From Candidatus Velthaea sp. (GTDB taxonomy: Bacteria; Vulcanimicrobiota; Vulcanimicrobiia; Vulcanimicrobiales; Vulcanimicrobiaceae): DNA of 20,067 bases. The stretch covers positions 1 through 20,067 of the forward strand of contig JBEKHC010000092.1 in the NCBI GenBank assembly GCA_050012475.1, written 5' to 3'. The notes beneath the pieces are model-generated. The model was given only the letters and a program-made list of their open reading frames with translations. It was not told the DNA's origin and made no database searches. Shown piece by piece: positions 9,167 through 20,067 of the stretch (positions within the stretch are counted from its first letter, which is position 1; each line of letters opens with the position of its first letter). The position numbers were made by a program, and so were the translations under genes.

Positions 9167-10249
9167 TCAGGAGCCGATTCCGAGCTTGGAGCAACCGGCG
9201 GCGTAGCGCCCGGTGCACAGTTGAGCGGGTGTCTGAATCGGCATACCGTTTACGCGCTTGTCGATGATCTCCGCCTTGAGGTTGCCGGCAGTAACGATGG
9301 CCGGGGTGAAAAGCTTGGTTGGCGTGCCGAATAGCGTCGTGTCGGCCTTCACCGGCTCGCCCTTGAGCAGGCTGACCGCGACATCCGCTGCGGCCCCACC
9401 GACGATTTCGCTCGGTTTGGAAATCGTGTTGTATTGGTCGCCGGCGATGATAAGCTGCAAACCCGCGATCGTCGCGTCGTTGCCGGTGACCGGCGGGACG
9501 GGGTCGACGCCGGCCGCCTTCAGGGCTGCGATCGCGGCGCCGCCGGTGCCGTCGTTGGCGGCCACGACCCCGACAATCTTCTTGCCGAAGCGTGAAACTT
9601 GGCCGCCGACCCATTGCTGCGCTTTGGACGGATCCCAGTTCGGTGTATCGTATTCGGCCAGGGTCGCAAAGCCGCTGCCGGCGAGACCTTCATGGACGCC
9701 CTTCTTGATGAGGCCGGCCGCTGCGTCGGTCGGCGAACCGTTGACCTCGAGCAGGCCGCCGGCGCTCGGCGACACACCCGCCGCTTTCAGGTGCTGCACG
9801 AGCGATTGCGCGATCGCCTTCCCAATTTCTTCGTTGTTGAATGAAACGTAGTAGTCCAGCTTGACCGAGGGTATGGGGCGGTCGTAGGCGATGACTTTGA
9901 CGCCCTGACTTTGCGCCTGCTTCACGAGCGATGCCGCCGCCGTCGAGTCGACGGGGTCGATCACGATCGCCTTCGCGCCCTGAGAGATAACCGAGTTGAA
10001 CTGCTGCTGCTGCTTTGAGGCATCCGCGTCAGCGTTTTGATACAGGACCGTGCAGCCGGCACACAGCTTTTTCAACTCAGCGACAAAGCCCGGACGGTCG
10101 TGCTGTTCGTAGCGAGTCGAACCCTCATCCGGCATGAGAAAGGCGATTTTCGCATCCGACACATCGGCGGCGAGCGCGGTCGTTTCGCCGAGAATGATCG
10201 TAGCGAGGGCCGCTGTACCGATCGCCTTCCATACGGCTGCCTTAGTCAC
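9167..10249 (-). CDS. Sugar ABC transporter substrate-binding protein (XylF-like)
   Basis: Signal peptide ending ALA, plus STRYEQHDRPGF, IAYDR, AANDG and VTGND. GTG at 10249 is preceded by GGAGAG. Confidence 0.95.
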   Translation of the reverse strand: MTKAAVWKAIGTAALATIILGETTALAADVSDAKIAFLMPDEGSTRYEQHDRPGFVAELKKLCAGCTVLYQNADADASKQQQQFNSVISQGAKAIVIDPVDSTAAASLVKQAQSQGVKVIAYDRPIPSVKLDYYVSFNNEEIGKAIAQSLVQHLKAAGVSPSAGGLLEVNGSPTDAAAGLIKKGVHEGLAGSGFATLAEYDTPNWDPSKAQQWVGGQVSRFGKKIVGVVAANDGTGGAAIAALKAAGVDPVPPVTGNDATIAGLQLIIAGDQYNTISKPSEIVGGAAADVAVSLLKGEPVKADTTLFGTPTKLFTPAIVTAGNLKAEIIDKRVNGMPIQTPAQLCTGRYAAGCSKLGIGS

Positions 10250-10474: not shown

Positions 10475-10696
10475 GAGCATAATATCTCAAACCCGCGGAC
10501 TCGTCAATGCCTCTTTGCCAACCCAGCCGAAGGGTCGATGCCCCGCGATTTCCGGCGCACGCTCGGTGCCGGTTCATTGGCGCGCGTTCGCGGGAAAATG
10601 GTCGGCGGTGCATAACGTCCCGGTTCTCACTACCGGAACGGAGTCAATTACTTCGCCGACGCGCCCCGCGGAAAAACAACGGCAGGTAAAGCGCTA

Positions 10697-11809
10697 ATGC
10701 CAAACGGCAAGAAGACGACCATTTACGATATCGCTAAGGAAGCGCGATCGTCGGCCTCGACGGTCGCGTCGGTGTTGAACGGAACCTGGCAAAAAAGACG
10801 CATCAAGAAGAGCACGGCCGAAGCGATCCAGAAAATTGCCGTCAAGAGAGCCTACAGCCCGAACCTTCAGGCGCGCGGCCTGCGAAAGTCGCGCTCGGGC
10901 CTGGTCGGCATGATCATTCCGCTTTTGGAATACCGTTTTTTTAGTTCGCTGGCTGAGGCATTCGAAAGGGCAGCGCGTGCCGAACAGCTTTATCCAGTCG
11001 TCGTAAGCACGCTTCGTGATCCCGCCAACGAGCAAGCCACGGTCCGCGCGCTCATTTCCCATAACGTCGAGGCGCTGTTTCTGGCAGGCGCCACTGATCC
11101 TGACACGCTGTCGGAAATATGTCGCAGGGCGCGCGTCAAGCACGTAAACGTCGACCTCCCCGGCTCGAAGGCACCCTCCGTAATCAGCGATAATTTTCAA
11201 GGCGCCGTACGCCTTACGGGCGCAATCGTTAACCGAATGCGATCGCTCGATCCAGCGTCGAGCCGGCAAAGCATCTCTTTCATCGGCGGTGCGCCGGACT
11301 ACAACACGCAGCAGCGCTTGGCAGGCTTTCGGAGCTGTCTGGATGAGGCTGGTTTTCAGGTCGACCCGTCCTGGCTTCAGGTCAGCGGCTACGAGTCATA
11401 TCTTGCAGAAGCTGCGCTCCGCGGGGTCTATGCGCAACTTGGCAAGCTGCCGGACGGGCTTTTCGTCAATTCAACGACCGCATTCGAAGGTGTTGCCCGC
11501 TTTCTTCAAACCTTGCCGCTCGACGAGGTTCGTGCTTGCGCCATCGGTTGCTTTGACTGGGACCTCTATATCGAATTTCTGAATTTTCCGGTGATCATGG
11601 TTCGCCAGAACGTGCACGGGATGATCGCAGAAGCGTATCGCATTTTGAAGGGGCCGAGAGTCCCTGGTGCACCGATTATCTTGGTTCCTACCGAAATGAT
11701 TGCCACCGGCAAGCAGTCTTCTGATGAAGACCACATTGGGCATGTCGCAGAACAGCGAGCCTCCAGCATCGGCGCGGCCAGAACCACGAAGCCGCGCCGG
11801 TCGGTTTGA
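10697..11809 (+). CDS. LacI family transcriptional regulator
   Basis: HTH TIYDIAKEARSSASTVASVLNG, hinge YSPNLQARGLR and a periplasmic-binding-type effector domain. Confidence 0.95.
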   Translation: MPNGKKTTIYDIAKEARSSASTVASVLNGTWQKRRIKKSTAEAIQKIAVKRAYSPNLQARGLRKSRSGLVGMIIPLLEYRFFSSLAEAFERAARAEQLYPVVVSTLRDPANEQATVRALISHNVEALFLAGATDPDTLSEICRRARVKHVNVDLPGSKAPSVISDNFQGAVRLTGAIVNRMRSLDPASSRQSISFIGGAPDYNTQQRLAGFRSCLDEAGFQVDPSWLQVSGYESYLAEAALRGVYAQLGKLPDGLFVNSTTAFEGVARFLQTLPLDEVRACAIGCFDWDLYIEFLNFPVIMVRQNVHGMIAEAYRILKGPRVPGAPIILVPTEMIATGKQSSDEDHIGHVAEQRASSIGAARTTKPRRSV

Positions 11810-11963
11810 ACCGGTCGAACCACCTTTGGCGGCTCACTTCCCGGACCGCGCAGCACGACAACGGTGAGTTCGTGTTCACCGAGATGCTCATGCCTGCGTT
11901 TACATGAGCTGGCGGAAACCATGGTTCCGCCTCACAGCCAACGCGATCGCGAATCCCGACGAG

Positions 11964-12006
11964 CAGCACATTCGACGACCGTCGGCCGTCGATTGTGCTG
12001 ATTTTT
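11964..12006 (+). terminator. Probable intrinsic terminator between convergent lacI and ethD-like genes
   Basis: CAGCACATTCGACG at 11964-11977 pairs 13/14 with CGTCGATTGTGCTG at 11987-12000 and is followed by ATTTTT. Confidence 0.65.
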
Positions 12007-12310
12007 ACTCGATGTCGCTGAAGAGGAACTTTACGCCTCCGGTGCCGAGTTGCAGCGCGTCGCGCGCGTACGCCTGGCCTTCCGGCGTCGCGACTGCGGC
12101 GCTGGCAGCCGTATAGTCGTCGAAGTACAGATCCTCGGTCCGGTATGCGGGCGTCGGCGAACCATCTTCCTTAGGAAATACCTTCCCGAGTTCCACACGT
12201 TTGACGTTCGGGATCTGCTTCGCAAGTGACTTGTGCCGTTCGGCATAGTGCTTTTCGAAAGTTGCAGGATCGGCTGGATTATCGAAGATCACGGTAATTT
12301 TAACGCTCAT
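12005..12310 (-). CDS. EthD family protein (dimeric alpha-beta barrel)
   Basis: 101 aa with P-x-DPATFEKHYAERH-x2-LA-x2-IP and L-YFDD patterns. AGGA SD upstream. Confidence 0.85.
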   Translation of the reverse strand: MSVKITVIFDNPADPATFEKHYAERHKSLAKQIPNVKRVELGKVFPKEDGSPTPAYRTEDLYFDDYTAASAAVATPEGQAYARDALQLGTGGVKFLFSDIE

Positions 12311-12514
12311 GGTGTGTCCTATCTGAAGATGAGTTTGGATTTCCGAAGCGCGCTAACCATACCGAGCTCGTGTGCTCGCGCAGGCAAGGTAAGACGGAGT
12401 ACCGCGCAATCGAGGGAGAAGGAGGGCACGGTTCTGGCACGGTTCTATGCGGGGTTCCGTCACAGAACGTTCACGGACATCTGGAGTCCTATCAATCGTG
12501 TTGGATGGAAGGGG

Positions 12515-14678: not shown

Positions 14679-14814
14679 TCGCGAGTCAAAGCGTCCACCC
14701 CGCGGCCGCGGCGGCGCGCTTGCAGAAAGTTCGGCTCTAGCCGACAGGGCGTCAAGAAGCGGTAATACCGCGAGTTTCCTGCCGCGAACGGGTGGGGGTT
14801 GACGCTGGCGGTAT

Positions 14815-14841
14815 GATATACATGCGTAGGAAGTGTGTATC
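14815..14841. promoter_or_regulatory. Probable TA autoregulatory operator (GATATACA-N11-TGTGTATC)
   Basis: 7/8 inverted repeat just upstream of the antitoxin SD, with TATGAT at 14812-14817. Confidence 0.5.
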
Positions 14842-14855
14842 TTCATAGGGGAATC

Positions 14856-15086
14856 ATGCAGGTAGCCAAATGGGGGAACAGTCTTGCTGTTCGATTGCCG
14901 CAAGCGATAGTCGATGCGCTGAAGTTACAGGAAGGTGACGAGGTGCAAATCGAGGTCGTCGGCTCTCGAGCGTTCGAGGTAGAGCGTAAGCCTGCGCCGC
15001 GGGAACTGCTTGCGCGCCTCCGTAAGTATCGTGGTCGCCTTCCGGCAACGTTTGTATTCGATCGGCTGGAAGCGAATGAACGCTAG
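14856..15086 (+). CDS. vapB: AbrB/MazE/SpoVT family antitoxin (VapB-type)
   Basis: MQVAKWGNSLAVRLP...L-x-EGDEV. AGGGGA SD. Overlaps the PIN gene. Confidence 0.92.
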   Translation: MQVAKWGNSLAVRLPQAIVDALKLQEGDEVQIEVVGSRAFEVERKPAPRELLARLRKYRGRLPATFVFDRLEANER

Positions 15087-15477
15087 TCGCTTTTTCGATA
15101 CCAATGTCTTGCTCTATCTGCTATCTGGCGATCAGGCAAAGGCTAATGCCGCGGAGACGCTTGTCGCGTCGGGTGGAATCGTAAGCGTACAAGTGCTAAA
15201 TGAGTTCGCATCAGTAGCGACGCGGAAACTGCATATGCTCATACCCGAGGTTCGCGAGATACTCGCGACGGTTCGTCGCCTTTGCACTGTTCATTCGCTC
15301 TCGGTCGAGTCGCATGACGAGGGACTCGAAGTGGCCGACCGCTATCAACTATCCGTCTACGATGCGATGATCGTGGCATCCGCGCACCAGGCTGGCTGTA
15401 AGTCTCTCTATACTGAGGATCTGCAAGATGGGATGGCAATCCTCGGCCTCACGATTCGCAACCCGTTCAACGCATAG
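15076..15477 (+). CDS. vapC: PIN domain ribonuclease toxin (VapC-type)
   Basis: FFDTNVLLY, SVQVLNEF, YDAMIVASA, LYTEDLQDG and NPF, with the acidic PIN residues present. ATG at 15076. Confidence 0.93.
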   Translation: MNASRFFDTNVLLYLLSGDQAKANAAETLVASGGIVSVQVLNEFASVATRKLHMLIPEVREILATVRRLCTVHSLSVESHDEGLEVADRYQLSVYDAMIVASAHQAGCKSLYTEDLQDGMAILGLTIRNPFNA

Positions 15478-15682
15478 GCGCACGCGAGTTCCGGCCGCCA
15501 AGCCGCATTGAAAACAACCTTGAAAGAAACGAATGTCGAACTCGCTGCATAGCTGCGCTGATCACGATGTGAGTCGGGGTATTGCCCCGGCCGTCAGCGT
15601 TTCGAGCGCGCGTCAGCATTTGGAGCAGCCGCGAAAAGACGCTCGTGAACATCGTTCAAGCGACGGCTTTTGCGAGTAAACG

Positions 15683-16450
15683 ATGGACCACGAACCGGTT
15701 CGACCGCACCGTGGCGCTCTTATCGTCACCGGTGCTGGTCACGGAATCGGCGCTGCGACGGCGTTGCTCGCCGCGGCTTTGGGATACGTTGTAGCAGTCA
15801 ATTACGCGCACGACCGGGATGGCGCCGAGGGTGTCGCCCAGGCGATCGCCGCAGGCGGTGGGAAGGCTATCGTTATTGGTGGAGACGTCGCGAATGAAGC
15901 CGACGTCGCGCAGATGTTCGCCTGCGCGGAACGCGAACTAGGATCCATCACCGGGCTCGTGAACAACGCTGGAATTACCGGCGGCTCGTCGCGGGTCGCC
16001 GACGTTTCGCGCGATGTCCTTGAACGTACGCTCGCCGTCAACGTGATTGGCACCTTCCTCTGCGCGAGGGAAGCCGTACGCCGCATGGCCCACTCGCGCG
16101 GCGGCGCCGGCGGGGCTATCGTGAACGTGTCGTCGCGCGCTTCGATCATCGGTGGCGCCGGCGAGTGGGTGCATTACGCGGCAAGCAAGGGTGCCATCGA
16201 CACATTCACCCGAGGTTTGGCACTTGAAGTTGCGAGCGAGGGGATTCGTGTGAACGCTGTTTCGCCGGGCCTCATCGATACAGCAATTCACATGAGCGGC
16301 CGTCCCGGGCGGCTCGCGGCTTTGGTGCCATCGGTTCCGCTCGGCCGTGCGGGCACCGTCGAAGAGGTCGCCGAGGCGATTCTTTGGCTACTCTCGCCCG
16401 GCGCTTCGTACGTGACCGGAACGATCGTCGACGTCGCCGGCGGGCGCTAA
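15683..16450 (+). CDS. SDR family oxidoreductase
   Basis: TGAGHGIG, NNAG, YAASK, IRVNAVSPG and a DVAGGR C-terminus. Confidence 0.93.
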   Translation: MDHEPVRPHRGALIVTGAGHGIGAATALLAAALGYVVAVNYAHDRDGAEGVAQAIAAGGGKAIVIGGDVANEADVAQMFACAERELGSITGLVNNAGITGGSSRVADVSRDVLERTLAVNVIGTFLCAREAVRRMAHSRGGAGGAIVNVSSRASIIGGAGEWVHYAASKGAIDTFTRGLALEVASEGIRVNAVSPGLIDTAIHMSGRPGRLAALVPSVPLGRAGTVEEVAEAILWLLSPGASYVTGTIVDVAGGR

Positions 16451-16763: not shown

Positions 16764-17639
16764 ATGACGCGATCCCGGCATCAAGCAGATGCGGATCCCG
16801 ACGATAGGACCACTCGGCCGTGCAGATCATCCGTGAAGTTCTTCGTGTTAACGTTCGCTCTCGCAATCCCATTCGTCGTCTATGGCGCGTGGACGCGGCT
16901 TCTGCTGTTGCCGGGCCTTCCCGTCGCCGCGTTGATGTTCGTTTGCCCCGGGATGGCAGCGCTCATTTTAACGTACCGCGATCGTGGGACTGCAGGTGCG
17001 AAAGAGCTGCTAAGCAGAGCGCTCGACTACAAGCGGATAAGTCCGAAAGTCTGGTACGCACCAATCTTCCTTATTGCACCCTCCGTGGCAGCGTTGTCCT
17101 ATGGCGTAATTCGATTAACTGGAGCACGAGTTCCGGCCCCCCAAATCGCCCTTCTGCCCACGATTCTCTTGGGCGTCACCTTCCTCGTCGGCGCTTTGGG
17201 TGAGGAATTGGGTTGGTCCGGATACGCCACCGACCCATTGCAGAATCGATGGGGCGCAGTCAAAGCCGGTCTCCTGTTGGGGTCGATCTGGGCGGCCTTC
17301 CACTACGCGGCTTTGTTGGAAGCTAACCGATCTATTTCGTGGATCGCCTGGTGGTCAGTCGGCACCGTCGCGACGAGAGTCATCATGGTCTGGCTTTACA
17401 ACAACGCGGGTAAAAGTGTCGTCGGCGCAGCCCTCTTTCACATGACAGGCAATCTTGCTTGGCAGCTGTTCCCGATACGCGGTTCATATTTCGATCCACG
17501 GATCAACGGCTTGATCACGGCCATCGTTGCTGCCGTTGTCATAGTGCGGATGCGCCCGCGCGCCGCCACCGCGAGTACGCTTGTGCCCTTACGTTCCGAT
17601 CGAGTCTTTGATCCGCGACAGCCGTCGGATGGAGATTAG
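16764..17639 (+). CDS. CPBP family (CAAX/Abi) intramembrane glutamic endopeptidase
   Basis: Multi-TM protein with GEELGWSGY, WAAFH and FHMTGN. The Arg usually found after EExxW is Ser here. AAGGGAG SD. Confidence 0.9.
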   Translation: MTRSRHQADADPDDRTTRPCRSSVKFFVLTFALAIPFVVYGAWTRLLLLPGLPVAALMFVCPGMAALILTYRDRGTAGAKELLSRALDYKRISPKVWYAPIFLIAPSVAALSYGVIRLTGARVPAPQIALLPTILLGVTFLVGALGEELGWSGYATDPLQNRWGAVKAGLLLGSIWAAFHYAALLEANRSISWIAWWSVGTVATRVIMVWLYNNAGKSVVGAALFHMTGNLAWQLFPIRGSYFDPRINGLITAIVAAVVIVRMRPRAATASTLVPLRSDRVFDPRQPSDGD

Positions 17640-17838: not shown

Positions 17839-18483
17839 TTAGCGTCGCGTAAAGGGCGCCGCGCTGCACTGAAGCATCGTGTCGACGGCGAATTCGCGGA
17901 GGTTTTTCGGAGTGATCGTCACCGCTCCGCACCAGTCGGTCCGGAAGATCGCGATACGTGCGCGCTGCAACGTGTCGATCGTCGCCGGTGTCGGATGGCC
18001 GAAAAGATTGTGACGGCCGACGGAAATCGCCGCGAAGCGTGGCAGTACGGCACTGATGAAAGATGAAAGCGGGCGTCGAAGCGTACCTCGACCCGTGGTG
18101 ACCGACTTTGAGGAAATCCGCGCGCAGGTCGATGTGATGATCGATCAGCTCGGATTCGCGTGCCATCCCCGCATCGCCCATGAAGAGCGCGGTGAACGGC
18201 TTTCCTTCCCGCGCGTACGTCAAGCGCGCAACGATGCTGTTCTCATTGACGTCGTCGCCCGTGTCGACGAGCGGCACATCCGTCGGCGCGAGAATGTCGA
18301 GCGAAACGCCGTCGTCGGTCGTCCAGTGCCCGCCCCGATGCACGACTCGAATGGGCACGTGCCGTCCCGCAGCGGCGCGCTTGCAGTCGATGTAGGCACG
18401 CCCTCCATAGGACTGGCCCGAGTCGAAGATTTCTCCGACCGTAAATTGCGTGACAACACCCAAGCAGCCGCCGACATGATCGC
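17839..18483 (-). pseudogene. comEC: comEC 3' fragment copy C (MBL domain), 5'-truncated and frameshifted
   Basis: Begins at DHVGG and contains DVNENS, LFMGDAG and LKVGHHGS. After removing the 7-bp duplication (18055-18068) it continues SVGRHNLFGHP...RTDWCGAVTI...TMLQC to TAA at 17839-17841. Confidence 0.9.
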
Positions 18484-18528
18484 ATAAGGGAGTTCATGCA
18501 CAGGAAGGGGGTGGCCGATGTCGATGAC

Positions 18529-18568
18529 TTGACGCGATTTAAGAGCCCGTGTATACTTGCGTATATAC
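18529..18568 (+). promoter_or_regulatory. mazEF promoter with overlapping operator palindrome
   Basis: TTGACG at 18529-18534, a 17-nt spacer and TATACT at 18552-18557. GTGTATAC-N4-GTATATAC at 18549-18568 is a 7/8 inverted repeat. No SD before ATG 18569. Confidence 0.75.
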
Positions 18569-18808
18569 ATGGAATCAGAAACAAAAGTCGCGCGCTACGG
18601 GAATAGCCTATCGGTACGCCTTCCTGTCGGCATAACACGTGAACTTGATCTTCGGGAGGGCGACCGCGTCGTACTTCGCACCGTTGATGCGGGATTGCTG
18701 ATCGAATGTCCCAAGCGTGGTCGTCTCGCGGCGCGGCTGAGCACGGTCCGAGAGCGAGAATCCGAGATCGGTGCCGGTCTTGCCGTCGGTGCCGAGATCG
18801 CCAAGTGA
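18569..18808 (+). CDS. mazE: MazE/AbrB family antitoxin
   Basis: KVARYGNSLSVRLP...L-x-EGD-x-V and an E-x3-G-x-AVGAE C-terminus. GTGA overlap with the toxin. Confidence 0.92.
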   Translation: MESETKVARYGNSLSVRLPVGITRELDLREGDRVVLRTVDAGLLIECPKRGRLAARLSTVRERESEIGAGLAVGAEIAK

Positions 18809-19137
18809 AGGTTCCTGAACGCGGAGATCTCGTCGTTTTGGACTTCGACCCGCAAGCGGGACACGAGCAAATGAAGCGTCGGCCGGCGCTCGTACTCTCG
18901 CCTGCAGCTTTCAATGATGCTTTCGGTCTGGCTTTTGTGGCGCCCATAACGACAAAGCCTAAGGGCCATGCCTTTGAAATTCCGCTTCCCGGCGACTCGC
19001 GTGTCAAGGGTGTCGTCATGGTTCACCAGCTTAAGTCTTTCGATTGGCGCGCGCGTCGCGCCCGGCTGGCGGGGAAGGTGCCGGAAGCCGTCCTTGCGGC
19101 TGCTGTGGAGATCATAAGAGATATCATCGAAGGTTAA
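18805..19137 (+). CDS. mazF: MazF/PemK family endoribonuclease toxin
   Basis: PERGDLVVLDFDPQAGHEQMKRRPALVLSP, PITT and QLKSFDWRAR. Confidence 0.95.
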   Translation: MKVPERGDLVVLDFDPQAGHEQMKRRPALVLSPAAFNDAFGLAFVAPITTKPKGHAFEIPLPGDSRVKGVVMVHQLKSFDWRARRARLAGKVPEAVLAAAVEIIRDIIEG

Positions 19138-19254
19138 CTCACGAGATCGGCAACTCAACTAGCTTTGACAATCATCGCTCAAGAAGGTTCTTAGGTAAGT
19201 CCAAGCACTTAGCCATGGCAGGGCGTACGAATGATCTAACATCCCGAGCCTTGG

Positions 19255-19413
19255 TTATGGGAAGTCCGACAAAAGGCTCGGCTGACCCGATGCGCGCCGC
19301 GAAACTGAAGCACACGGCAGCGCGGTTTCCATCGTCAATTTGTCGGCGCCCTCAGATGCAATCGTTACTGCGCCACACTGATCTGTCCGAACAAGTGAGG
19401 CACCCGGCGCCCT
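19255..19413 (-). pseudogene. comEC: comEC extreme 3' fragment copy B (~50 codons)
   Basis: Minus strand reads RAPGASLVRTDQCGAVTIASEGADKLTMETALPC...stop. It aligns ungapped to copies A and C with the same C-x20-C spacing. Confidence 0.8.
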
Positions 19414-19637
19414 CGGCGGTATACCGCGCGCGGTTTACGCCAAATGCTTGAGTCAGGAGACCACATCGCCCGCCGTCGATCGTGCATCGTTATAATAGAT
19501 GTATATACGCGTGCGGATCAGGCGGCAGCCTTCTCAGCCGCGCGTAGGATGCGCCACCGGTGCCGTAAACGGAATCGCTTGCACTTGACCATGCGGAACG
19601 TTTGAAGTCACTTTGTGTCCCACTACCCTCGGCACAA

Positions 19638-20066
19638 TCATTCGCCGGGCTCGTGTGTACCCGGTAGCAAAGTACAAGATAGCATCGTGTTAACGGACGA
19701 TCTTGAGGCAACCCCAGCCATAATCGCGACTGCTCCGCATCGATCCGTGCGGAAGATCGAAGCATCTGCGTGGCGCAATGTTTTCAGCGTAGCGGCCGCC
19801 GGGTGGCCGAATAGGTTGTGGCGACCGACGGACACGATCGCAAAGCGCGGATGGACGGCCTCAATGAATGCAGCACTCGACGAATACGCTGAACCGTGAT
19901 GCCCGACTTTGAGGATATCGGCGCGAAGATCGACGCCCTGTGCCAACAGGCGTTCTTCGGATTGAAATCCGGCGTCACCCATGAACAGCGCGCGCAATGT
20001 CCCGTACTGCACGAGTACGACAAGCGAGTTCTCGTTGACGTCGTTGGTACCGTCCCGAAACGGAGC
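19638..20066 (-). CDS. comEC: ComEC/Rec2 DNA uptake protein, C-terminal MBL domain (copy A; 5' part outside window)
   Basis: Frame is open from the window edge: DVNENSLV, LFMGDAG, LKVGHHGS, SVGRHNLFGHP and RTDRCGAV, ending at TGA 19638-19640. Whether it is full-length cannot be seen. Confidence 0.9.
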   Translation of the reverse strand, partial: APFRDGTNDVNENSLVVLVQYGTLRALFMGDAGFQSEERLLAQGVDLRADILKVGHHGSAYSSSAAFIEAVHPRFAIVSVGRHNLFGHPAAATLKTLRHADASIFRTDRCGAVAIMAGVASRSSVNTMLSCTLLPGTHEPGE

Positions 20067-20067
20067 C

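What the first reader, a model, noticed from the sequence alone, without database searches (positions are those of the whole stretch)
17839..20067. Array of three diverged comEC 3' ends interleaved with cargo: candidate comEC-anchored gene-capture or C-terminal swapping system
Seen: same-strand copies A (19638 to beyond 20067), B (19255-19413) and C (17839-18483) share RTDxCGAVxI followed by TxLxC with identical C-x20-C spacing. A and C are only about 60% identical by hand alignment (69/111 aa) with a 4-aa indel, so this is not a recent tandem duplication. MazEF sits between B and C. Established: elements that integrate within genes can carry a replacement 3' end and leave the old one behind (e14 and icd/icdC), and Rhs/CdiA loci accumulate orphan C-terminal modules. 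Inference: foreign DNA carrying a comEC tail plus cargo recombined in repeatedly, restoring comEC and pushing older tails downstream. B and C have different 5' limits, which favours homology-driven over single-att integration. The DNA uptake gene would thus anchor its own acquisition hotspot. No recombinase is seen in this window.
Basis: partly seen in the sequence, partly recalled or inferred. Interest (0 to 1): 0.88.

Follow-up and report, generated by a model that had tools for sequence, protein, structure and literature searches.

The report
Integrase-free gene cassettes stacked in comEC
Behind the DNA-uptake gene comEC of this uncultured soil bacterium lie worn-out spare copies of the gene's end, left by small mobile gene cassettes that dock at one exact spot inside the gene and each bring a fresh gene end plus passenger genes, moved by an enzyme that is still unknown.

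Summary
On the minus strand lie comEC tail A (19638-20067), remnant B (~19312-19431), mazEF, and 5'-truncated tail C (17839-18481, frameshifted). A joins a full-length comEC on contig C26.

The array is not homology-driven. In 46 distinct displaced tails from about 20 Eremiobacterota genomes and 11 metagenome contigs, the fragment starts at the same codon. This is the D of the HxHxDH motif. Each fragment is preceded by a related 22-25-nt non-comEC motif (window 18482-18504).

One 3.5-kb unit (tail + cargo + motif) is 93-100% identical in two genomes whose comEC 5' parts are 66% identical. Identity starts at that codon and stops at the next motif. The unit is fused to comEC in one genome and lies second in the other.

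These are therefore discrete cassettes. Each inserts site-specifically, restores comEC and pushes the old tail downstream to decay. No tyrosine or serine recombinase lies in any array. One complete genome with a three-tail array has only a Xer-type recombinase. The enzyme is unknown.

This scan noted the same system before in another Eremiobacterota genome (e1-8136816). I found no paper describing it.

The parts
19638..20067 (-). Tail A: last 142 codons of the intact comEC (metallo-beta-lactamase half). The gene continues on contig C26.
   Evidence: Open frame and Lactamase_B match. Join to C26. 79-86% aa identity to tails of same-genus genomes.
19432..19637 (-). Spacer behind the comEC stop codon. 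It is what is left of the first cassette's cargo. Its end motif and the first ~160 codons of the next tail are missing, which I read as a deletion.
   Evidence: No motif and no tail homology here. The deletion is inference.
19312..19431 (-). Remnant B: last ~40 codons of a displaced comEC tail (..RAPGASLVRTDQCGAVTIASEGADKLTMETALPC).
   Evidence: tblastn 44% over 34 aa to A. Translation.
18557..18808 (+). mazE-type antitoxin gene, cargo of the cassette that ends at the motif.
   Evidence: PF04014, E 4e-7.
18805..19137 (+). mazF/PemK-type toxin gene (start GTG at 18805, overlapping the mazE stop), cargo.
   Evidence: PF02452, E 1e-24. NCBIfam MazF, E 4e-30, below the curated cut-off. Start codon.
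18482..18504 (-). Cassette end motif CCTGTGCATGAACTCCCTTATGC, directly 5' of tail C. It is the element-side half of the attachment site.
   Evidence: Only match in the 5.36-Mb genome. 92-95% identical to the motifs before both displaced tails of G003. Same family of motif before 45 other displaced tails.
17839..18481 (-). Tail C: displaced comEC tail from the D of HxHxDH to the stop codon. It is a pseudogene, with a 7-nt tandem duplication within 18049-18070. Two other metagenomes carry a further 8-nt insertion behind 18111.
   Evidence: Closest to tails of other genera (62% and 59% aa).

Best explanation
The end of the window holds the relics of a stack of small mobile gene cassettes that dock inside comEC.

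A cassette has three parts. First comes a replacement comEC tail of about 200 codons, running from the D of the HxHxDH motif of the metallo-beta-lactamase domain to the stop. Then come one to a few unrelated cargo genes in either orientation. Last is a 22-25-nt end motif.

The cassette recombines site-specifically with the chromosomal comEC at the codons GAYCAYGT (D-H-V). Its own tail becomes fused in frame to the resident 5' part, so comEC stays whole. The former tail, with everything behind it, is pushed downstream and now sits behind the incoming motif. There it is no longer translated and decays.

In this window A is the tail in use. B is the stump of an older tail. mazEF plus the motif are the rest of B's cassette. 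C is a still older tail, now frameshifted.

The cassettes carry no recombinase, so the enzyme must act in trans. It could be the host's Xer-type recombinase or an enzyme on an element not seen here.

Shown: the fixed junction, the motif, the exact ends of one shared cassette, the discordance between the 5' part and the tails, the lack of a recombinase in cis, and the decay of displaced tails.

Inferred: the circular intermediate, insertion at the comEC-proximal site as the usual direction, and the enzyme.
For: 1. Fixed junction. Displaced tails begin at the D codon of HPHG|DH in G000, G003 (two), G008, G010 (two) and G017. The same holds in further genomes and contigs. One search lists 48 rows, two of which repeat one site, giving 46 distinct. 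By contrast, 64 intact genes read HxHx before the same codon.

2. Motif. An alignment of 31 junctions shows a shared non-comEC sequence (consensus ..GTGTGAGTnnAnGACTTTATGA|GAYCAYGT), with invariant and near-invariant columns. It comes in genus-linked variants. It occurs only at the arrays: G000 has one site, PWM score 34.7 against 12.6 for the next best. G222, G217, G294 and G319 have 7 sites in all, G164 has none, and the reversed control pattern gives 0.

3. Discrete unit. The second tail of G222 is 99% identical in DNA to the first tail of G326, while their 5' parts are 66% identical. The 93-100% identity runs from the D-H codons (L111 ~10793) to the motif before the next tail (L111 ~7314), about 3.5 kb. 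It then falls to 67-80%. In G326 this unit is fused to comEC. In G222 another cassette stands before it.

4. Discordance. The 5' parts of G222 and G294 are 88% identical but their tails 75%. For G190 and G389 the figures are 87% and 76%.

5. No recombinase in cis. Among 396 ORFs scanned in and around arrays there is no Phage_integrase, Resolvase or Recombinase match. The smallest spacing between two motifs is 1.26 kb.

6. G222, a single-contig genome with three tails of which both displaced ones are intact, has one PF00589 match, 1.3 Mb away, and no PF00239 match. That one match is Xer-type by NCBIfam.

7. Decay. Of the 46 distinct displaced tails, 18 are intact, 27 broken and 1 cut by a contig end.
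Against: - No enzyme is identified.
- No circular form or empty/filled polymorphism was seen. Logan contigs of four runs show no excision joint, but contigs drop rare forms.
- Only one pair of near-identical cassettes in different genomes was found among the loci held, so the exact ends rest on one pair.
- The window's own mazEF cassette was not found elsewhere among 348 family genomes.
- In G000 the tail in use (A) resembles the tails of its own genus, while the most distal tail (C) resembles other genera. The simple 'oldest is native' order therefore needs a later return of a genus-type tail, or transfer of the whole array.
- In G008 the tail in use and the displaced one share the same frame-breaking changes. 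That needs gene conversion or duplication on top of the cassette model.
- ORFs were picked by my own longest-ORF script (70-80 aa or more), so a small or unusual recombinase could be missed.
Confidence: 0.72

Rival explanations
1. Homology-driven capture. Incoming DNA recombines through RecA with comEC tail sequence, by homologous or homology-facilitated illegitimate recombination. This leaves old tails behind at variable break points.
For: B has a different 5' limit from C. Tails within one genome can be 70-96% identical and show a gradient (G017) or shared lesions (G008) that suggest gene conversion. Homologous exchange between tails probably does reshape arrays once they exist.
Against: All 46 distinct full-start fragments begin at one codon (two within one base) behind a conserved foreign motif. 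The shared cassette has exact ends. Tails of about 75% DNA identity are poor substrates for RecA.
Confidence: 0.07
2. Scars of ordinary integrative elements (prophages or islands with their own integrase) that target comEC and carry a replacement end, as e14 does at icd. On this reading the integrase and most genes were later lost.
For: A known kind of element. Replacement of a target gene's end and tandem accretion are established for such elements.
Against: No integrase in any array or contig examined. Units are as small as 1.26 kb. A 3.5-kb integrase-less unit is itself shared nearly unchanged between distant genomes with exact ends, so the small unit is what moves. IMG/VR holds no truncated comEC tail of this kind; 41 of 41 loci are whole stand-alone MBL genes.
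Confidence: 0.12
3. A tail-switching system kept for the cell's benefit. On this reading the spare tails are a reservoir for changing the C-terminal half of ComEC's nuclease domain, as silent pilS copies serve pilE, and the cargo is incidental.
For: Tails form a pool of old alleles at about 75% DNA identity that are reassorted against the 5' part. A tail type that is displaced in three genomes is the one in use in others. 18 of 46 displaced tails are intact.
Against: 27 of 46 are broken. C carries further frame-breaking insertions in other populations. Every unit carries unrelated cargo. No sign of selection on displaced copies was tested or seen.
Confidence: 0.08
4. Assembly or binning artefact. 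On this reading pieces of different strains' comEC genes were joined in one contig.
For: The genome is a 204-contig metagenome bin with 5.3% contamination. The contig breaks inside comEC.
Against: The same layout is covered at 99% or more by contigs of four runs from four studies, one of which bridges the contig break. The same architecture occurs in single-contig genomes (G222).
Confidence: 0.01

Closest known systems
Integrons (IntI, attI, attC cassette arrays)
   Same: Small units of one to a few genes without their own recombinase. Each is closed by a recombination site at its 3' end. They are stacked head to tail at one fixed chromosomal site, and the same cassette is found at different array positions in different genomes.
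   Different: No IntI next to the array. The end motif is a conserved sequence, not a folded imperfect palindrome; no consensus structure was found. The docking site lies inside a gene, and every cassette carries about 200 codons that rebuild that gene. Cargo lies in both orientations.
Integrative elements that rebuild their target gene (e14 and phage 21 at icd; dusA-targeting islands, PMC8409611, abstract seen; the e14/icd details are recalled)
   Same: Insertion within a conserved gene at a conserved coding stretch. The element supplies a diverged replacement for the cut-off part, and the old part stays behind as a pseudo-fragment.
   Different: Those elements encode their integrase. Here none is present, the units are far smaller, they stack in arrays of up to four, and the replaced part is half of a catalytic domain (about 620 bp).
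SCC / SCCmec composite islands at rlmH (orfX), including ccr-less SCC-like units (recalled, not read here)
   Same: Tandem accretion at the end of one conserved gene. Units are separated by repeats of the attachment site, and some units lack a recombinase and depend on one in trans.
   Different: The SCC site covers only the last few codons of rlmH. Ccr serine recombinases are known and often present. No serine recombinase at all was found in G222.
Xer-dependent elements (IMEX phages; dif modules of Acinetobacter plasmids; recalled)
   Same: Mobile units with no recombinase of their own that use a host tyrosine recombinase. In G222 a Xer-type enzyme is the only tyrosine recombinase found.
   Different: Those integrate at or between dif-like sites. 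Here the site is in comEC, and no second motif-like site (a candidate dif) exists in G000. My attempts to find the host dif failed.
Mobile elements that disrupt comEC or other competence genes (mefA cassette in pneumococcal comEC, PMC4774983 passage; a CRISPR-guided transposon targeting comEC, PMC9881144 passage; transposable elements in Piscirickettsia comEC, PMC12955456 abstract)
   Same: comEC as a repeated target of mobile DNA.
   Different: Those insertions inactivate the gene. These cassettes keep it whole. The 27-38-kb islands noted in passing in G012 and G041 are of the disrupting kind.

Membership tests
Integron | IntI-type tyrosine recombinase gene next to the array | tested here: not met
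   No PF00589 match in any array. The only PF00589 match in G222 lies 1.3 Mb away and scores as Xer, far below the integron-integrase cut-offs.
Integron | attC sites: imperfect inverted repeats conserved in fold rather than in sequence | tested here: not met
   RNAalifold on 31 junctions gives no consensus pair. The motif is conserved in sequence.
Integron | Cassettes inserted at one site, giving arrays whose members occur in other arrays at other positions | tested here: met
   The G222 second cassette equals the G326 first cassette. The G041 first cassette partly equals the G326 third.
Integrase-bearing integrative element that rebuilds its target gene (e14/icd type) | Element-borne replacement of the target gene's end, with the old end left as a fragment | tested here: met
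   Tails fused in frame; displaced tails lie downstream.
Integrase-bearing integrative element that rebuilds its target gene (e14/icd type) | Own integrase gene beside an att site | tested here: not met
   none among 396 ORFs.
Xer-dependent mobile element (IMEX / dif module) | No recombinase of its own; host Xer present | tested here: met
Xer-dependent mobile element (IMEX / dif module) | Attachment site resembles the host dif site and integration is at dif | tested here: inconclusive
   Integration is in comEC, not at dif. The host dif was not found: hits of a palindrome pattern were rRNA or coding sequence, and a scan with recalled E. coli dif arms gave nothing. No second motif-like site exists in G000.
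Rhs/CdiA orphan C-terminal arrays | Polymorphic toxin tips each paired with an immunity gene, displaced by homologous recombination | tested here: not met
   The gene is comEC. The cargo is unrelated regulators, enzymes and toxin-antitoxin pairs. The junction is fixed with a foreign motif.
ComEC/Rec2 (for tail A) | Competence domain followed by a metallo-beta-lactamase domain in one frame | tested here: met
   PF03772 and Lactamase_B on the C26 part. Lactamase_B end on A. Join.

The most novel reading that the evidence does not exclude
An integron-like gene-capture platform that needs no dedicated integrase. A universally conserved catalytic-motif codon block inside comEC serves as the docking site, and each cassette pays its way by carrying a working half of the nuclease domain. 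The cassettes are moved either by the host's single Xer recombinase or by an enzyme class not yet recognised. They may enter as transforming DNA through the very channel that comEC encodes.
Probability: 0.3. Interest if true: 0.9.

Novelty: new variant of a known kind. Interest (0 to 1): 0.74.

Why it matters
It shows how a phylum known only from metagenomes (Eremiobacterota, formerly WPS-2) collects and exchanges accessory genes. Recombinase-less cassettes use a catalytic-motif codon block of a conserved gene as a safe landing site across genera whose comEC 5' parts are only 60-66% identical.

It also gives a natural case of repeated in-frame swapping of half an enzyme domain. That bears on how modular the metallo-beta-lactamase fold is.

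It contrasts with the known habit of mobile elements of destroying competence genes.

Finally, it defines a short DNA site and a clean assay (attB against cassette site) with which an unknown recombination activity could be hunted.

Tried and rejected
- Conserved hairpin at the junction: RNAalifold on 31 junctions found no pair.
- Host dif. A scan of G000 with recalled E. coli dif arms gave no convincing site (best 16 of 22). A palindrome pattern taken from the G008 motif, run on five genomes, gave hits that proved to be 23S rRNA or coding sequence. A PWM of the junction found no second site in G000.
- Helper phage. IMG/VR gave 41 loci with relatives of the tail. All have the whole HxHxD motif and only the MBL domain, so they are stand-alone MBL genes and not attP-type truncated tails.
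- Metagenome contigs with the type I motif: 11 contigs, no tyrosine or serine recombinase among 62 ORFs, one IS3-type transposase.
- The window's mazEF cassette elsewhere: only 65-75% identical mazEF homologues at other places in 26 of 347 family genomes.
- The G222 cassette cargo elsewhere: 96% only in G326; the next best is 77%.
- Synteny downstream of comEC within the genus: none, except a vapBC pair shared with G003.
- A step in identity at the D-H codons between G000 and its genus relatives. Tails are 73-90% identical against 59-82% for the 5' part. Tails are more conserved anyway, so for G000 itself this is only suggestive.
- Excision joints in public runs: none in contigs of four runs. 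One weak joint (18507 to 18654, one contig, 32 letters on the short side) is not interpretable.
- The search of earlier findings by place and by sequence returned nothing.
- Literature. Four full-text searches found elements that disrupt comEC, but no description of cassettes that restore it.
Full report
**What is in the window**

The window is the whole of contig C92 of a 204-contig bin (5.36 Mb, 93.8% complete, 5.3% contamination). All comEC pieces lie on the minus strand.

- Tail A (19638-20066) is an open 142-codon frame cut by the contig end.
- Contig C26 ends in a 634-codon open ComEC frame with the Competence domain.
- The last 8 bases of C26 equal the first 8 of the reverse complement of C92, and the frame continues.
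- ComEC genes of the same genus align across the junction without a missing residue.
- In an independent run, a 1616-nt Logan contig covers 19255-20065 and runs on for 805 nt. By eye, 28 of its first 30 further letters match the reverse complement of the C26 end.

So A is the end of a full-length comEC of about 771 codons.

Behind its stop codon, in order, come:
- a 206-nt spacer;
- remnant B (about 19312-19431, the last ~40 codons of a tail);
- mazE and mazF on the opposite strand;
- a 23-nt motif (18482-18504);
- tail C (18481-17839).

C runs from the D of HxHxDH to a stop codon. It is about 52% identical to A in protein and is broken by a 7-nt tandem duplication within 18049-18070.

Contigs of four runs from four studies cover the stretch at 99% or more. 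Two of them carry a further 8-nt insertion in C behind 18111. C is therefore a decaying pseudogene in a real population, not an assembly product.

**The same thing in relatives, with a fixed junction**

Record titles of related loci name Candidatus Eremiobacterota / Vulcanimicrobiota, several as Baltobacteraceae. Two of those loci lie in genomes of the window's family f1.

A tail query gave these counts over 401 genomes of the phylum:
- 322 genomes have a match.
- By my hand count of the table, 64 of the 268 matching genomes of family f1 have two or more matches. This is an upper bound, because a frameshifted single gene also counts twice.
- In family f2, 0 of 5 have two or more. In f3, 1 of 27 does (G352, flagged unpublished).

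Arrays reach four tails in G222, G374, G326 and G217.

Wherever a displaced tail keeps its start, it begins at the same codon, the D of HPHG|DH.
- One search lists 48 such junctions. Two repeat a site of L119, which leaves 46 distinct.
- Two of the 46 are off by one base.
- Of the 35 rows that classed as fragments, six were false: two misregistered intact genes, one spurious hit, and three intact genes of other phyla with HPD variants.
- The 64 intact genes in the same call read HxHx before the codon.

Directly 5' of every displaced tail lies a sequence that is not comEC but is alike from genome to genome.
- An alignment of 31 junctions gives the consensus ..GTGTGAGTnnAnGACTTTATGA|GAYCAYGTCGGCGG, with invariant and near-invariant columns.
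- Genus-linked variants exist. The window's form (CCTGTGCATGAACTCCCTTATGC) recurs in G003 and G374.
- The motif occurs only at arrays. G000 has one site. G222, G217, G294 and G319 have seven together, the single-tail genome G164 has none, and the reversed control pattern gives none.

**A discrete mobile unit**

In genus g45 the DNA identities are discordant.
- The 5' parts of G222 and G294 are 88% identical but their tails in use are 75%.
- For G190 and G389 the figures are 87% and 76%.
- Most tails differ from each other by about 25%, whatever the relatedness of the 5' parts.

The exception is decisive. The second tail of G222 is 99% identical to the first tail of G326, while the 5' parts of these two genomes are 66% identical. 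A window-by-window profile shows 93-100% identity from the D-H codons of that tail, through its cargo (EVE, MarR, TetR and SDR genes), to the motif before the next tail. That is about 3.5 kb. Identity then drops to 67-80%.

In G326 the unit is fused to comEC. In G222 it stands second, behind another unit.

The letters differ within the first nine bases (GAYCAYGTN) and at the last base of the motif, but not beyond. This places the exchange between -1 and +9. That rests on one pair only.

Part of the first unit of G041 recurs as the third unit of G326. A tail type that is displaced in G222, G294 and G319 (..DHVGGCRPVLD..) is the one in use in G164, G326 and G041.

**No recombinase in cis**

I scanned 396 ORFs from the arrays and their surroundings against Pfam.
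- None matched Phage_integrase, Resolvase or Recombinase.
- The only mobility genes were DDE or IS3-type transposases, in two large islands and one contig.
- The ORFs came from my own longest-ORF script (70-80 aa or more), so a small or unusual enzyme could be missed.

Two motifs can lie only 1.26 kb apart.

G222 is a single-contig genome whose two displaced tails are intact. It has one PF00589 match in the whole genome, 1.3 Mb from the array, and no PF00239 match. NCBIfam places that protein with XerC/XerD/XerA.

**What the cargo is**

The cargo is varied:
- toxin-antitoxin pairs (mazEF here, Phd/PIN, AbiE, Fic);
- an Uma2 nuclease and UvrA-like and STAND ATPases;
- many regulators and small enzymes (TetR with SDR, MarR, PadR, ECF sigma, glyoxalase, hydrolases);
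- a PDZ/GAF protein gene that often follows a tail.

This is an accessory-gene mix, not purely defence.

**Reading**

These features fit site-specific insertion of circular cassettes at GAYCAYGT inside comEC. The cassette's tail takes over, and the old tail is left behind the cassette's motif.

Displaced tails decay: 27 of 46 are broken, 18 intact and 1 cut by a contig end.

In the window, B lacks the motif and its first ~160 codons. I read this as a later deletion that also removed most of the first cassette's cargo.

Two points need additions to the simple model.
- A resembles its own genus (79-86% aa), while C resembles other genera (62% and 59%). Either a genus-type tail came back later or the array was transferred as a block.
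- In G008 the tail in use and the displaced tail share the same lesions, which calls for gene conversion.

**Enzyme**

The enzyme is unknown.
- The Xer idea rests on elimination in G222.
- It also rests on a loose 11-6-11 dyad in some motif variants. In G008 the inner six bases of the two arms are a perfect inverted repeat.
- I could not find the host dif.
- No second motif-like site exists in G000.
- The junction has no conserved fold.
- IMG/VR holds no truncated tail of this kind.

**Known context**

- I read passages in PMC4774983 (a mefA cassette inserted into pneumococcal comEC) and PMC9881144 (a CRISPR-guided transposon targeting comEC).
- I read passages in bioRxiv 10.1101/2024.08.13.607808 (prophages at competence genes).
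- I saw the abstracts of PMC12955456 and PMC8409611 in search listings.
- All of these concern disruption of competence genes or integrase-borne islands.
- Four full-text searches gave no description of cassettes that rebuild comEC.
- Details of e14/icd, SCCmec, IMEX and pilS are recalled, not read here.

**Earlier notes of this scan**

I read these after my own analysis.
- e1-8136816 reports the same system in another Eremiobacterota genome: recombinase-free cassettes at one spot in comEC, a 22-base tag, enzyme unknown. My results agree and add the exact-ended shared cassette.
- e1-1500202 and e1-4462731 report comEC-tail arrays in other bacteria. I did not check them.

**Unpublished genomes**

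The tallies include genomes flagged unpublished (G011, G022, G036, G199, G232, G250, G262, G278, G290, G337, G352, G397). The only specific statement resting on one of them is the f3 count (G352).

Noticed in passing
L025:~9414-9545 with L018:~9434-9670 (G012); L108:~4140 with L109:~10988 (G041): A second hotspot about 118 codons into the tail, at ADV|LKVGHHG. In two genera comEC is truly interrupted there by islands of 38 kb and 27 kb. Each is flanked by a 9-bp direct repeat (C[CG]GACGTGC). The G041 island ends in 10-bp inverted repeats (CTGGGTTATT / AATAACCCAG). The islands carry SWIM plus DDE transposase genes, MarR-like genes, restriction-modification and other defence-like genes, and no tyrosine or serine recombinase. 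This looks like a site-specific transposon that inactivates comEC.
   Followed up: partly
L016:~12720; L112:~10558; L116:~4841; L117:~10346 region; L193:~1517: Several tails, displaced and in one case in use (G174), change frame at the same place, the KVGHHG codons (tail residues about 116-122). This is the same spot as the island insertions above. It may be a footprint or a mutational hotspot.
   Followed up: no
window 14734-15485: A vapBC-type pair (MazE-fold antitoxin plus PIN toxin) is 85% identical in DNA to a pair 2.9 kb behind a displaced tail on G003 contig C13. Nothing else downstream of comEC is shared within the genus.
   Followed up: partly
window 18111: Contigs of two other metagenomes (X1, X4) carry an 8-nt tandem insertion (GGAAATCC on the plus strand) inside pseudogene C. 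This is a further frame break that G000 lacks.
   Followed up: no
L126 end (G183 contig C1, last base): A 3.4-Mb contig ends one base before the GAYCAY junction of a tail, and the next displaced tail starts with almost the same 33 bases. Assemblies tend to break at these repeats, as in G000, where the break lies 69 codons further on.
   Followed up: no
L015:8308-10038 and 10569-12344; L114:14288-16003; L119:5374-7104: A gene for a PDZ/GAF protein of about 570-590 aa follows a comEC tail directly in several genera, twice in G010. It may be the ancestral downstream neighbour, carried along when cassettes formed.
   Followed up: no
L143-L183 (IMG/VR contigs): 41 viral contigs encode stand-alone metallo-beta-lactamase proteins 28-41% identical to the ComEC tail, with the whole HxHxD motif and no channel domain.
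   Followed up: partly
window 16764-17639, 15683-16450: A CPBP/Rce1-type membrane protease gene and an SDR gene lie between tail C and the vapBC pair. Whether they are the native flank or cargo of an older cassette is open.
   Followed up: no
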